Shown here in pieces: positions 1,897 to 55,555 of a stretch of 64,000 nt of DNA. Made by a program: the position numbers and the translations under genes. The stretch lies in the NCBI RefSeq assembly GCF_009914755.1, contig NC_060931.1. The stretch is one strand, 5' to 3'. A model generated the notes under the pieces. It searched no databases. It saw nothing but the letters and a program-made list of their open reading frames with translations, and was not told the DNA's origin. The stretch comes from the human T2T-CHM13v2.0 reference genome, Homo sapiens. Positions within the stretch are counted from its first letter, which is position 1, and every line of letters starts with the position of its first letter.

Positions 1897-1974
1897 CTGC
1901 CAAAAGTCAGCCACGGTGGCGGGCAGCGGTCCCTGGGTGGCGATGTACGCGGGGTTCCTCGGGTCGTGATCCAT
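1897..1974 (-). CDS. PTPRN2: PTPRN2 coding exon (78 nt, phase 0/0) [26 protein letters not shown]
   Basis: Acceptor TCTCTGCAG|ATG, donor CAG|GTGAAC; YIATQGPL and DFWQ PTP motifs; not present in the ORF track. Confidence 0.96.
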
Positions 1975-2000
1975 CTGCAGAGACAAGACCACACCACAGC

Positions 2001-2365
2001 GGTTAGCCAGGAGATTAGGAAGCCTGGAGGTTAGGAAGCCTGGAGGTTAGGAAGCCAGAAGGTTAGGAAACCCGGAGGTTAGGAAGCCAGGACGTTAAGA
2101 AACCCGGAGGTTAGGAAACCTGGGGGTTAGGAAGCCAGGAGGTTAGGAAGCCTGGTGTTTAGGAAGCCCGGAGGTTAGGAAGCCAGAAGGTTAGGAAGCC
2201 AGGAGGTTAGGAAGCCTGGAGGTTAGGAAGCCAGGAGGTTAGGAAGCCTGGTGTTTAGGAAGCCCGGAGGTTAGGAAGCCAGGAGGTTAGGAAGCCTGGT
2301 GGTTAGGAAGCCCGGAAGTTAGGGAGCCCAGAGGTTAGGGAGCCTGGAGGTTAGGAAGCCAGGAA
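2001..2365. repeat. 16-bp minisatellite GGTTAGGAAGCCTGGA, ~22 copies, immediately upstream (in transcript sense) of the 1974 acceptor
   Basis: Read directly from the sequence. Confidence 0.95.
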
Positions 2366-10660: not shown

Positions 10661-10734
10661 GATGGGGCTAGCGTTGATGTAGTCTGAGTGGCTGTGGCTG
10701 TTCTCCGCCTTCAGCAGGACCCGGGAGTGGTCAT
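10661..10734 (-). CDS. PTPRN2: PTPRN2 coding exon (74 nt, phase 1/0) (Y)[24 protein letters not shown]
   Basis: Acceptor CCTTGCAG|AT, donor ATC|GTAAGT; DxxRV and DYINAS motifs; not present in the ORF track. Confidence 0.96.
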
Positions 10735-10771: not shown

Positions 10772-10940
10772 CCCACCCAGCAGTGTGAGACCCCCACTTG
10801 GCCTCCAGGGCCCCCCACCCAGCAGCACAGGACCCCTGCCCAGCCTCCAGGGTCCATCACACAGCAGTGTGGGACTCCCAAACAGCCTCCAGGGCCTATA
10901 GCCCAGCAGTGTGGGACCCCTGCCCGGGCTCCAGGGCCCA
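10772..10940. repeat. Diverged 42-bp tandem repeat, ~4 copies, starting ~40 nt upstream of the 10734 acceptor
   Basis: CAGCAGTGTGGGACCCC...CCTCCAGGG recurs at 42-nt spacing (14-aa period in the + ORF). Confidence 0.8.
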
Positions 10941-21570: not shown

Positions 21571-23819
21571 TGCTGTCTCCAAAGCCTGGGCAGATGGGCA
21601 CAGCTGGGTGTTAGAGGGCACTGAGGGATTGTTGTTAATTTTCTTAGTTATAACGGGGCTGCAGCTACCTAGGAGAAGGCCCTTGTATTTAGGACCTGCA
21701 GGCAGGCTAAAGTATTTGGACGTCATGACGCCTGATACTTACTTGAAGTCGTCCAGCCAGAAAATAAATGAAGTGCTCGCAGGTCACGCTAATACGGCCA
21801 ACACTGGGCGGCTGGCCAGCGTGGGTGGTGGGTGTGCAGGCGATGCCACGCTACCCCTTCCACTTGAGTGTTTAAAACTCTTGTAATAAAAAGTGGGGGA
21901 GGAAGTCATGCTAAGCCAGCCACACTTCTGCTCCAGAGAGGGCCCTGCAAGAGCGGTGTGCGTGGGTTGCGGCTGGGTCTGCGCTGGGGTAGTGTAGGCT
22001 GCACTCTCCGGGGAGCCGCTGACCTTGGGCTCCCTAACCTCCTTCAGCCCCAGCTCTGTCCCTGTGTGAATCTCAGGGCTGTTTCGAGGATGAAAAGGAG
22101 GTGTTTAGCCCCGAGCCTCACGTGGAAACATCTGATGAGCCTTTGCCAATATGCTCGGGACCTGGGGACGGCTGGGGTGACCCCATCGCAAGGCCGGGCC
22201 GTGGAAACAATCTCAGCCCTGGAACCAGCGCCTGGGAAGTCCCGCGGTGGATCCGCGTCACGGGGGAGGATTGGCTCAGCACTGGTCCTGCGGAATGTGT
22301 TTTTATCAATGACTTGACGACGTGAAAAACATGTTTATAAAACGAGCAGATGGTGCCGAGCTGAGAGGGAGGTGACGCAGTGACTCAGGAACCACAAGCT
22401 CTGGAGGCTGAACGAGAATCGGTTACAGGAGATGAACACAAGGCTCGATTCTCCTGTTAAACTTGACTGTCACCAACGGGGGGTGGGGGGTGCGCGAGGC
22501 CCTGGGCTCCACCGAAGACCTTAAGGAAAAGACTCTGGATGTTAGTGGGTTCGGCCTCAGAATCAGCCGGCGCTGAGATGTGCACCTGGCAGGATGAACG
22601 TAACTTCTGGTGGATAAAGTGGGAGGCCTGATCCAGGAAGAAGCACACCGTGGCCTGGGGCCCCTCTGGAGGGTAGGTCTTCCAAGTCACGGGAAACAGG
22701 GCGCCCAGGAGACGGTGAGCCCGGCTGCTGCCACCCCGAAGGCCAGGCTCGCCCCACACTGTGAGACCCTCCCCACACGAAGATTCTGTAAGCGGAATCG
22801 GAAGGAGGATGTGAGAAGGACGGGTAGCCATGCCACACCAGGCCAGACATCTTACCAACCTATCGGTTCAGTTTTAAGAAAGAGAGCAAAGAGGATCTAA
22901 AATCTGAACTTTGAGCAGCTGAACTGTGTGGAGTATCAACGTGGCTCCTGACAACCCCACCGGCACTGTTTCTTTGCACTGGAGGTCCTGAAGAGCTCAC
23001 GGAAGGTGCACTTGCAGTTGTAGTTCAGAGATGATGCTTTTAGACAATCTTTCCCTTCGAGAAGTAGCCTAATGAGAAGGACTCTGTAGATCTCTTCCTA
23101 AAAAAGAATCCTCAGTCTCTGGCAGAACAGCTGCCCAGAACAGCTTCTGCCTGTGAGGTAGCAAAGAAAAAGGCCCACACAGAATTTGCTGGGATATTTT
23201 CTTTCCAACACCAACAAACCGACAGCCTTCCCAAATCCTAGGGCAGAGTCGGCTGGCACTGAGATCAAAAGGGGTGAAGGGAAGGCAGCCAGGCTGGGAG
23301 TCTCTCTCCAGCAACTTTCTTGGCGAGGTGACATATATGCCCAGAACCTTTTTCTATGGAAGGAAAAAGAAAACCCTGGCTTAATCATCAGAGTTAGGAG
23401 AATCACCCACGTATTCATCTTTAAAAGCAAATCATGATAACTTTTGGTCACTCAGAAGTAACCAAGGCAAAATATTCCTCTTAGGGGACTCTGTTTAGAG
23501 TTTTGGGAGAGAAAAAAAAAAAAACTAAACCAAAGGTTTATTTAGAAATAAATTGTTTTCTGAGTATTCTAAGGAAAGCTATGCTTAGCCAAAGTGCTTC
23601 AGCCCTTGTACATGTTTCAAATACTTCTGTAGAAGTTTGAAATGGACATGGATTTTCCCAACACACACGCACAATCTCAGGTGAGCCCAAGACAGCCTAT
23701 GAGGATGGCACTGGGGAGTCTGGATTTCAGCTCTGACGGGCGGGCTCTAAACCCCAAAGTTCTTGTCGGCCAAGTGGGGGGGTTTCTTGTGAGGACCAGA
23801 GGTGGCACATCCACGGGCA

Positions 23820-24260
23820 TGGGGGACGCTGGCTCACGATGCCCCAGTGATGCCGTGGTTAGGACACTGCTCACGCAGCTGCAGCGCAGAGCACGGGGGA
23901 CGCTGGCTCACGATGCCCCAGTGATGCCGTGGTTAGGACGCCGTTCACGCAGCTGCAGCGCAGAGCACGGGGGACGCTGGCTCACGATGCCCCAGTGATG
24001 CCGTGGTTAGGACGCCGTTCACGCAGCTGCAGCGCAGAGCACGGGCGACGCTGGCTCACGATGCCCCAGTGATGCCGTGGTTAGGACGCCGTTCACGCAG
24101 CTGCAGCGCAGAGCACGGGCGACGCTGGCTCACGATGCCCCAGTGATGCTGTGGTTAGGACGCTGTTCACGCAGCTGCAGCGCAGAGCACGGGGGATGCT
24201 GGCTCACGATGCCCCAGTGATGCCATGGTTAGGATGCTGCTCAAGCAGCTGCAGCGCAGG
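23820..24260. repeat. 74-bp CpG-rich minisatellite, 6 copies
   Basis: GGGGGACGCTGGCTCACGATG... at 23821, 23895, 23969 and onward. Confidence 0.95.
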
Positions 24261-27515: not shown

Positions 27516-28101
27516 GTTTCCCCCGCCTGTAACCCAGGCCTCCCTCCCCGGGGACTGGTACACACAGGTCAGCATGGCCAGTTTCCCCCGCCTGTAACCC
27601 AGGCCTCCTGCCCCCGGGACTGGTATGTACAGGTCAGCATGGCCAGTTTCCCCCGCCTGTAACCCAGGCCTCCTGCCCCCGGGACTGGTATGTACAGGTC
27701 AGCATGGCCAGTTTCCCCCTCCTGTCACCCTGGCCACCTGCCCCCGGGGCTGGTATGTACAGGTCAGCACGGCCAGTTTCCCCCTCCTGTAACCCAGTCC
27801 TCCCGCCCCCGGTGCTGGTATGTACAGGTCAGCACGGCTAGTTTCCACTGCCTGTAACCCAGGCCTCCCGTCCCCGGGGCTGGTACACACAGGTCAGCAC
27901 GGCCAGGTTCCCACTCCTGTCACCCTGGCCTCCTGCCCCTAGGGCTGGTACACACAGGTCAGCACGGCCAGTTTCCTCCGCCCGGAACCCTGGCCTCCTG
28001 CCCTCGGGCCTGGTATGTACAGGTCAGCACGGCCAGTTTCCACCGCCCGTAACCCAGGCTTCCTGCCCCCGGGGCTGGTACGTACAGGTCAGCACGGCCA
28101 G
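27516..28101. repeat. 65-bp minisatellite, 9 copies, overlapping the 3' end and donor site of the 148-nt exon
   Basis: The junction motif recurs at 27566, 27631, 27696, 27761, 27826, 27891, 27956, 28021 and 28086. Confidence 0.96.
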
Positions 28102-38166: not shown

Positions 38167-38605
<439 letters not shown>

Positions 38606-53546: not shown

Positions 53547-55555
53547 AGGTCAGACCCATCCAGCGTGCACCGAACTCGGTGGGTCGGACCCATTCACTGT
53601 GCACCGAACTCGGTGGGTCAGACCCATCCAGTGTGCACTGAACTCGGTGGGTCAGACCCATCCGGGGTGCACTGAACTCGGTGGGTTGGACCCATTCACT
53701 GTGCACTGAACTCGGTGGGTCGGACCCATTCACTGTGCACTGAACTCGGTGGGTCGGACCCATCCAGCGTGCACTGAACTCGGTGGGTCGGACCCATTCA
53801 CTGTGCACTGAACTCGGTGGGTCAGACCCATCCAGCATGCACTGAACTTGGTGGGTCGGACCCATTCACTGTGCACTGAACTTGGTGGGTCAGACCCATC
53901 CAGCATGCACTGAACTCGGTGGGTCAGACCCATTCACTGTGCACTGAACTCGGTGGGTCAGACCCATCCAGCGTGCACTGAACTCGGTGGGTCAGACCCA
54001 TGCAGCGTGCACTGAACTCGGTGGGTCAGACCCATCCAGTGTGCACTGAACTCGGTGGGTCGGACCCATTCGCTGTGCACTGAACTCGGTGGGTCAGACC
54101 CATCCAGCGTGCACTGAACTCGGTGGGTCGGACCCATTCGCTGTGCACTGAACTCGGTGGGTCGGACCCATCCAGCGTGCACTGAACTCGGTGGGTTGGA
54201 CCCATTCACTGTGCACTGAACTCGGTGGGTCGGACCCATCCAGCGTGCACTGAACTTGGTGGGTTGGACCCATCCAGCATGCACTGAACTCGGTGGGTCA
54301 GACCCTTTCACTGTGCACTGAACTCGGTGGGTCAGACCCATTCACTGTGCACTGAACTCGGTGGGTCGGACCCATCCAGTGTGCACTGAACTCGGTGGGT
54401 CGGACCCATTCACTGTGCACTGAATTCGGTGGGTCAGACCCATCCAGCGTGCACTGAACTCGGTGAGTCGGACCCATCCAGCGTGCACTGAACTCGGTGG
54501 GTCGGACCCATCCAGCGTGCACTGAACTCGGTGGGTTGGACCCTTTCACTGTGCACTGAACTTGGTGGGTCAGACCCATCCAGTGTGCACTGAACTCGGT
54601 GGGTCGGACCCATCCACTGTGCACTGAACTCGGTGGGTCAGATCCATTCACTGTGCACTGAACTCGGTGGGTTGGACCCATCCAGCGTGCACTGAACTCG
54701 GTGGGTCGGACCCATTCACTGTGCACTGAACTCGGTGGGTCGGACCCATTCACTGTGCACTGAACTCGGTGGGTCGGACCCATCCAGCGTGCACTGAACT
54801 CGGTGGGTCGGACCCATTCGCTGTGCACTGAACTCGGTGGGTCGGACCCATCCAGCGTGCACTGAACTCGGTGGGTTGGACCCATTCACTGTGCACTGAA
54901 CTCGGTGGGTCGGACCCATCCAGCGTGCACTGAACTCGGTGGGTCGGACCCATTCACTGTGCACTGAACTCAGTGGGTCGGACCCATCCAGCGTGCACTG
55001 AACTCGGTGGGTCGGACCCATCCAGCGTGCACTGAACTCGGTGGGTCAGACCCTTTCACTGTGCACTGAACTCGGTGGGTCAGACCCATCTAGCGTGCAC
55101 TGAACTCGGTGGGTCGGACCCATCCACTGTGCACTGAACTCGGTGGGTCGGACCCATTCACTGTGCACTGAACTCGGTGGGTCGGACCCATCCAGCGTGC
55201 ACTGAACTCGGTGGGTCGGACCCATTCACTGTGCACTGAACTCGGTGGGTCGGACCCATTCACTGTGCACTGAACTCGGTGGGTCAGACCCATCCAGTGT
55301 GCACTGAACTTGGTGGGTCGGACCCATCCAGCGTGCACTGAACTCGGTGGGTCGGACCCATTCACTGTGCACTGAACTCGGTGGGTTGGACCCACCCAGG
55401 GTGCACTGAACTCGGTGGGTCGGACCCATCCAGCGTGCACTGAACTCGGTGGGTCGGACCCATCCAGTGTGCACTGAACTCGGTGGGTTGGACCCATCCA
55501 GCGTGCACTGAACTCGGTGGGTCGGACCCATTCACTGTGCACTGAACTCGGTGGA
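53547..55555. repeat. 34-bp minisatellite, ~59 copies, with two main unit types
   Basis: GGTCGGACCC-(ATTCACTGTG or ATCCAGCGTG)-CACTGAACTCGGTG. Confidence 0.97.

What the first reader, a model, noticed from the sequence alone, without database searches (positions are those of the whole stretch)
1975..2365. Branch-point-motif array directly upstream of a 3' splice site
Seen: on the transcribed strand each 16-nt unit reads TCCAGGCTTCCTAACC, giving ~22 CTAAC (yUnAy) motifs, many followed by a CAG. The final degenerate unit (GGCTAAC, ~2002-2008) lies ~28 nt upstream of the real AG at 1976-1975, the position expected for the true branch point. Inference: the VNTR is an amplification of the branch-point region and may supply alternative branch points, cryptic acceptors, or SF1/QKI-like CUAAC binding sites.
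Basis: partly seen in the sequence, partly recalled or inferred. Interest (0 to 1): 0.7.

Follow-up and report, generated by a model that had tools for sequence, protein, structure and literature searches.

The report
Branch-point-like minisatellite beside PTPRN2 exon 17
A 16-letter repeat, copied 22 times just before an exon of the repeat-rich human gene PTPRN2, carries a splicing "branch-point" word in most copies, but only the last two copies are predicted able to serve that exon, so it is most likely a harmless by-product that at most would leak a little mis-spliced RNA predicted to be destroyed.

Summary
The array is real: a 16-bp minisatellite (2005-2364; 22 full copies plus a truncated one), found only at this locus and ending 30 nt before the PTPRN2 exon 17 acceptor. 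GGCTAAC puts its A at -29, the usual branch distance. By the AG-exclusion rule only 3 of 23 motifs (-29, -41, -57) can serve the annotated acceptor. The 8 cryptic CAGs scored below the real acceptor in 9 of 9 small models, are mostly predicted paired in CCAGG/CCUGG stems, and each would give a stop at codon 3. No copy has the ACUAA motif described for SF1/QKI. In 258 kb of the gene, yUnAy-bearing minisatellites are strand-symmetric (15 vs 16 of 50) and splice sites are no nearer to arrays than chance. Best reading (0.62): a minisatellite seeded beside the branch point, nearly neutral for splicing. The boldest open reading (0.12) is an allele-tunable ladder of poison acceptors that sets PTPRN2 dosage. 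Polymorphism, conservation and RNA evidence could not be tested.

The parts
2005..2364 (-). 16-bp minisatellite in PTPRN2 intron 16: 22 full copies plus a truncated one; consensus TGGCTTCCTAACCTCC; variant units recur at a 6-unit (96-bp) spacing
   Evidence: one locus only in the genome by DNA search and by an exact two-unit pattern, 11 of 11 matches here
2002..2008 (-). GGCTAAC, likely main branch point (A at 2003, -29); equals a unit lacking 4 nt (TCCT)
   Evidence: 90% of mapped human branch points lie 19-37 nt upstream (PMC4315302); not mapped experimentally
2014..2020 (-). TCCTAAT in the last full copy (A at 2015, -41): possible minor alternative branch point
2030..2036 (-). TCCTAAC in the second-last copy (A at 2031, -57): best U2 match (5 of 6 pairs); its AG at +7 is close enough to be bypassed, so it could still serve exon 17
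2007..2027 (-). Predicted CCAGG/CCUGG hairpin (-5.1 kcal/mol) pairing the nearest upstream AG (2025-2024) and looping out the -41 motif
   Evidence: prediction only
2024..2346 (-). Eight cryptic CAG acceptors (G at 2344, 2296, 2248, 2216, 2152, 2120, 2040, 2024); each is followed by a TAA at codon 3 in the frame of exon 16
1975..1988 (-). Polypyrimidine tract TCTTGTCTCT and the annotated acceptor CAG
   Evidence: hub annotation
1897..1974 (-). PTPRN2 exon 17 (78 nt, phase 0), phosphatase-domain segment [26 protein letters not shown]
10661..10734 (-). Exon 16, whose donor ends in phase 0 and would be the partner of any junction into the array

Best explanation
This is a 16-bp minisatellite found only at this locus, which likely arose by duplication of the stretch just upstream of the exon 17 branch point and is likely almost neutral for splicing: the branch point is predicted to stay at A2003 (-29), with the last two copies (-41, -57) as possible minor alternatives. 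Shown: the array, its motifs, the AG positions and the stop at codon 3 after each CAG. Inferred: (1) origin by slippage or unequal exchange between TCCTGGCT direct repeats, a unit that already held a second CTAAY; (2) U2AF and U2 assemble on the real tract and AG, because the array's CAGs have C-rich tracts broken by AA and are mostly paired; (3) the 20 upstream motifs cannot reach the real AG because an accessible AG intervenes; (4) rare junctions into the array would be removed by nonsense-mediated decay.
For: Only 3 of 23 anchors have the real acceptor as first AG more than 12 nt downstream (rule from PMC1431707). The real acceptor outscored all 8 cryptic AGs in 9 of 9 small models trained on the 10 other acceptors. 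In the main model it scored 6.7 bits against -1.1 to -11.8, with 0.5% vs at least 9% of 19,065 intronic AGs scoring as well. Of those 19,065, 80 score at least as well as the best cryptic site and have a CTRAY 18-44 nt upstream with no AG between, so such pseudo-acceptors are common. Five or six of 8 CAGs are under 10% unpaired at pairing spans of 60-150 nt, 4 of 8 at 250 nt. Motif-bearing arrays are strand-symmetric, and 2 of 21 splice sites lie within 50 nt of an array against 3.3 expected (3 of 21 with the 42-mer). PTPRN2 is among the most VNTR-rich genes (PMC7608644). None of the 9 PTPRN2 junction rows in the TDP-43 neuron table concerns exon 16 or 17.
Against: No lariat, junction or CLIP data were seen. 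The acceptor models rest on 10 sequences, and in the 3 pooled models four cryptic sites score 2.9-4.2 bits, above the weakest real acceptor (1.0-1.4). The array's TCCTAAC pairs better with U2 (5 of 6) than GGCTAAC (4 plus a wobble), and its motifs are mostly predicted unpaired. CTAAC arrays are uncommon (2 of 50 sense), and this one does sit at an acceptor. The array folds no better than shuffles (z +0.78), so masking is marginal. In ABCA7 a splice-site VNTR does produce unit-retaining, decay-prone transcripts. The direction of origin is untested without orthologues.
Confidence: 0.62

Rival explanations
1. Poison-acceptor ladder: branch point/CAG pairs 23 nt apart inside the array are used at a measurable rate (best candidate 2040, +65 nt). 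Each gives Ala/Val-Ser/Pro-stop and decay, so the number and order of CAG copies would tune PTPRN2 output.
For: 7 of 8 CAGs have a CTAAC branch A 23 nt upstream; all 8 give a stop at codon 3. Four score within the real range in the pooled models. Precedent on the donor side in ABCA7 (PMC5954066). Decay would hide the products from ordinary RNA-seq (inference).
Against: Weaker than the real site in 9 of 9 models, with 2-4 A in the tract against 0 at exon 17; predicted pairing. The stop follows automatically from a TAA every 16 nt. No row for this locus in the supplement files searched. Polymorphism not shown.
Confidence: 0.2
2. DNA-level element: the array acts as part of an enhancer through repeated GGAA (ETS-type, recalled) or TTAGG words on the + strand, and the branch-point likeness is incidental.
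For: RefSeq enhancers 1060-2259 and 2329-2829 overlap it (hub table). 17 AGGAAG, 1 CCGGAAG and 21 TTAGG on the + strand.
Against: Neither enhancer is centred on the array or covers it whole, and 2260-2328 is in neither. The enhancer assay types were not visible. No binding data.
Confidence: 0.08
3. Cis decoy or loading platform for SF1 or QKI (Gomafu- or RAI14-like) that slows or regulates exon 17 recognition.
For: 18 CUAAC and 20 UAAY half-sites at 16-nt spacing in the 22 full copies, mostly unpaired; spacing within the 20 nt of the QKI bipartite element.
Against: 0 ACUAAY and 0 UACUAAC in all of intron 16. SF1 binding fell when UACUAAC was changed to ynCUrAy or yUnAy (PMC3116199). QKI repression needed ACUAAC (PMC13004596).
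Confidence: 0.07
4. Distant branch point exon: branching occurs far up in the array, followed by scanning to the real AG.
For: Strong CUAAC motifs in a 69% pyrimidine stretch; hairpins could hide intervening AGs.
Against: The AG-exclusion zone is 50 nt, ordinary among the 11 acceptors (23-90). Eight AGs intervene, and a well-placed CTAAC exists at -29.
Confidence: 0.03

Closest known systems
ABCA7 intron 18 VNTR (PMC5954066; passages read)
   Same: Minisatellite of about 23 copies at an exon boundary; use of a signal inside a unit gives a premature stop and decay.
   Different: There the unit holds the canonical donor, and length effects on splicing and disease were measured. Here the canonical AG is outside the array, the repeated signal is a branch-type motif with cryptic AGs, and nothing is measured.
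Splicing-associated tandem repeats, e.g. the NARS2 repeat (PMC10078293; passages and 10 supplement files)
   Same: Repeat in the branch point/acceptor region.
   Different: The NARS2 repeat lies between branch point and AG, so its length changes the spacing. Here the array lies upstream of the likely branch point, so its length leaves the spacing unchanged.
Gomafu/MIAT UACUAAC repeats binding SF1 (PMC3116199; passages)
   Same: Multiple branch-point-like words in one neuronal RNA.
   Different: Gomafu has full UACUAAC, conserved from chicken to human, in a stable nuclear exon. Here it is UCCUAAC in an intron, with no ACUAA.
RAI14 intron 10 dual ACUAAC branch sites, QKI/SF1 competition (PMC13004596; passages)
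   Same: Several usable branch motifs next to one acceptor.
   Different: Needs ACUAAC and a cassette exon. Exon 17 has neither ACUAAC nor, in what I saw, evidence of regulated inclusion.
Distant-branch-point exons (PMC1431707; passages)
   Same: Branch motifs hundreds of nt upstream.
   Different: Those have a long AG-free zone; here it is 50 nt.

Membership tests
Minisatellite / VNTR | Head-to-tail unit of about 10-100 bp with interspersed variants | tested here: met
   16-bp unit, 22.5 copies, 12 variant types among 22 full copies
Minisatellite / VNTR | Copy number varies between people | not testable with these tools
   One human assembly only. No row by coordinate or motif in the supplement files searched, which are partial lists.
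Splicing-associated tandem repeat (spl-TR) | Repeat length associated with a splicing change | not testable with these tools
   The only PTPRN2 row in 10 files was another repeat near exon 21; file 1 not searched.
ABCA7-type splice-site VNTR | The unit contains the canonical splice dinucleotide of the adjoining exon | tested here: not met
   Array ends at 2005, AG at 1976-1975. The exon 15 donor array at 27516-28101 does meet this.
ABCA7-type splice-site VNTR | Transcripts spliced at signals inside units are detected | not testable with these tools
   No RNA data; no exon 16/17 row among 9 PTPRN2 rows in a table that appears limited to changed events.
SF1/QKI element (Gomafu repeat, QKI response element) | ACUAAY or UACUAAC core | tested here: not met
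   0 in intron 16; motif definitions
SF1/QKI element (Gomafu repeat, QKI response element) | UAAY half-site within 20 nt | tested here: met
   UAAY in 20 of 22 full copies at 16-nt spacing
SF1/QKI element (Gomafu repeat, QKI response element) | Binding shown by CLIP or pull-down; conserved across species | not testable with these tools
   No CLIP data or orthologous introns available
Distant-branch-point exon | Long AG-exclusion zone (100 nt or more) reaching the branch point | tested here: not met
   First upstream AG ends at -50
Canonical branch point (A2003) | yUnAy match, A at 19-37 nt, no accessible AG before the acceptor | tested here: met
Canonical branch point (A2003) | Lariat mapped to this base | tested here: inconclusive
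   No hit in 8 supplement files of PMC4315302; the hg19 coordinate was recalled and file 1 was not searched.
Interstitial telomeric repeat (definition recalled) | Tandem TTAGGG with period 6 | tested here: not met
   Period 16; 2 TTAGGG and 21 TTAGG

The most novel reading that the evidence does not exclude
The array is a polymorphic poison-acceptor ladder. Every CAG copy is a ready branch point-plus-acceptor pair that ends the reading frame at codon 3, CCUGG copies mask those CAGs by pairing, and the identity of the last two or three copies shifts branching among -29, -41 and -57. Allele composition rather than length would then set how much PTPRN2 mRNA is diverted to decay in neurons and islets: an acceptor-side counterpart of the ABCA7 VNTR, invisible to ordinary RNA-seq.
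Probability: 0.12. Interest if true: 0.65.

Novelty: new member of a known kind. Interest (0 to 1): 0.28.

Why it matters
If neutral, it is a clean natural example of a spliceosome ignoring about 20 near-ideal branch motifs because position, tract and AG order decide. It also warns that motif counts in repeats mean little. If the ladder reading holds, it is a hidden dosage control on a gene whose reduced expression is tied to ALS and TDP-43 loss in one preprint (10.1101/2025.06.28.662167, passages), and short-read studies would miss it.

Tried and rejected
Dispersed repeat family: rejected, all matches are at this locus (notes that DNA search skips simple repeats). Selected RNA structure: whole-region folding is no better than shuffles (z +0.78, 81 of 100 shuffles as good). 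CAG masking is the same when the A/T/G letters are permuted among copies (0.146 vs 0.156 +/- 0.039, 40 permutations), and A/T alternation is not significant (9 vs 6.3, P 0.11). Enrichment of minisatellites at splice sites: not seen. Alu origin: an 11-mer is shared with the masked repeat at 38167-38443 (Alu label recalled), too short to count. Three-tier G-quadruplex: none. Pseudo-exon inside the array: its 4 GT positions do not look like donors by eye. Link to TDP-43 cryptic splicing: the 4 PTPRN2 events listed lie in other introns. A genome-wide count of CTAAC arrays was not obtained, and the survey covers 258 kb (exons 13-23) of the 1.07-Mb gene. No standard splice-site scorer was available, and the HSF passages gave no numeric matrix. 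A recalled 2023 paper on VNTRs and splicing in GTEx was not found and is not used.

Full report
1. Observation. Tandem Repeats Finder gives a period-16 array at 2005-2364, 22.5 copies, 85% matches. On the transcribed strand there are 22 full copies and a truncated one. The consensus is TGGCTTCCTAACCTCC; the first position is T in 8, A in 8 and G in 6 full copies, and a variant unit recurs six units apart. CTAAC is in 18 of 22 copies, with CTAAA twice, TTAAC once and CTAAT once; the terminal GGCTAAC brings CTAAC to 19 and yUnAy to 21 of 23 anchors. There are 8 AGs in the array, all CAG. The A of GGCTAAC is at 2003, -29 from exon 17. A DNA search and an exact two-unit pattern found the repeat only here.

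2. Gene context. Using a human PTPRN2 protein, I placed exons 13-23 in 258 kb of the gene; their joined translation matches the protein's tail. Exon 1897-1974 is exon 17, 78 nt, phase 0, in the phosphatase domain. The other 0.8 Mb of the gene was not surveyed.

3. Is it more than chance? Of 50 minisatellites (period 9 or more, 3 or more copies; 110 arrays before this filter), those with at least half a motif per copy number 2 sense vs 1 antisense for CTAAC, 6 vs 6 for CTRAY and 15 vs 16 for yUnAy. Two of 21 splice sites lie within 50 nt of an array against 3.3 expected, or 3 of 21 if a 42-mer that the filter dropped is added. A 16-mer carries CTAAC in 0.7% of random intronic draws but in 7.8% of 270 overlapping windows upstream of the 10 other acceptors (few independent sites). 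So an array seeded here has a raised chance of carrying the motif, and amplification supplies the count. The combination is uncommon but needs no selection. PTPRN2 is one of the two most VNTR-rich genes (PMC7608644, passages).

4. Which motifs could work? The AG-exclusion rule says the first AG more than about 12-15 nt after the branch point is used and closer ones can be bypassed (PMC1431707, passages). Only 2003 (-29), 2015 (-41) and 2031 (-57) have the real acceptor as that AG. Ninety percent of mapped branch points lie at 19-37 nt, a third of exons have several, and stronger U2 pairing correlates weakly with use (PMC4315302, passages). Against a UACUAAC target, -57 has 5 of 6 pairs, while -29 and -41 have 4 plus a wobble. 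Position favours -29; minor use of the other two is plausible. A predicted hairpin (2027-2007, -5.1 kcal/mol) would hide the nearest AG and shorten the path from -57.

5. Cryptic acceptors. Their tracts are C-rich with 2-4 A, against none at exon 17. With a matrix trained on the 10 other acceptors, exon 17 scores 6.7 bits and the cryptic sites -1.1 to -11.8; 80 of 19,065 intronic AGs do at least as well as the best cryptic site and also have a branch motif. The real site wins in 9 of 9 model variants, but in the 3 pooled variants four cryptic sites (2344, 2216, 2120, 2040) fall within the range of real acceptors. These are small home-made models. Local folding predicts most CAGs paired with CCUGG copies and most CUAAC in loops. 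The region folds no better than shuffles, and the masking does not depend on copy order. Because exon 16 ends in phase 0, every CAG is followed by two codons and TAA, six introns before the last exon, so products would be decay targets (established rule, recalled).

6. SF1 and QKI. The papers read define ACUAA(Y), with a UAAY half-site for QKI (PMC13004596 and PMC9786888, passages). SF1 bound UACUAAC better than ynCUrAy or yUnAy versions (PMC3116199, passages). Intron 16 has no ACTAAY. Weak multivalent binding is not excluded.

7. Origin. TCCTGGCT precedes both the units and the terminal GGCTAAC, which equals a unit minus TCCT. Either the array grew from the sequence just upstream of an older branch point, or the branch point is an eroded unit. 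I favour the first, but orthologues are needed.

8. Literature. Ten searches listed no paper that by title or abstract concerns this repeat or a branch-point array at an acceptor; (VNTR, branch point, splice acceptor, repeat unit) returned none. Most listed papers were seen only as listings, and subscription journals are largely missing. Supplement searches by gene, coordinate or motif found no row for it in PMC10078293 (10 files, file 1 not searched), PMC4315302 (8 files, file 1 not searched, hg19 coordinate recalled), PMC8327921 (3 files, file 1 not searched), PMC7608644 (2 files), PMC12855859 (5 files) and PMC8891020 (files 11 and 13-18 not searched). In PMC8891020 PTPRN2 is well expressed and has 4 TDP-43-sensitive events in 9 rows, none at exons 16-17. 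The table appears limited to changed events, so this does not prove constitutive splicing. The supplementary figure on PTPRN2 cryptic events in preprint 10.1101/2025.06.28.662167 could not be seen (passages only). Passages were also read in 10.64898/2026.01.09.698641, PMC13196383, PMC8327921 and PMC2685110. The closest precedents are the ABCA7 donor VNTR and the NARS2 repeat.

9. Verdict. A real minisatellite at an acceptor, apparently undescribed, of a known general kind. Most likely near-neutral (0.62). Rivals: measurable cryptic use with decay (0.20), DNA-level enhancer (0.08), SF1/QKI decoy (0.07), distant branch point (0.03). Interest 0.28. The exon 15 donor array in the same window is a closer match to ABCA7 and may deserve its own look.

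Noticed in passing
window 27516-28101 (- strand): 65-bp x 9 minisatellite whose first copy holds the end of exon 15 and its donor (CCT|GTACGT). The 8 later copies keep a GT at the same place (5 GTACAT, 3 GTGTGT). This is an ABCA7-like donor array; use of the next copy would add 65 nt and shift the frame.
   Followed up: partly
window 23817-24259 (- strand): 74-bp x 6 array deep in intron 15 with one CCTAACC per copy on the sense strand, far from any splice site.
   Followed up: partly
window 10774-10940: 42-bp array ending 40 nt upstream of the exon 16 acceptor.
   Followed up: no
window 1548 and 1502 (- strand): The annotated alternative last-exon acceptors read acag|CAG (a tandem NAGNAG) and gtag|GGC, with poor pyrimidine tracts, about 350-400 nt after exon 17.
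   Followed up: no
window 1989-2000 (- strand): UG-rich spacer (GCUGUGGUGUGG) between the -29 motif and the tract. PTPRN2 is a TDP-43 target, but no event is listed at this exon.
   Followed up: partly
L016, about window -21903 (outside the window): Intron 20 begins with GC (CAG|GCAAGT), a GC-AG intron.
   Followed up: no
window 53548-55554: 34-bp x 59 array that is listed among the human-specific VNTRs of PMC8327921; about 2.0 kb here and 3.2 kb in hg38.
   Followed up: partly
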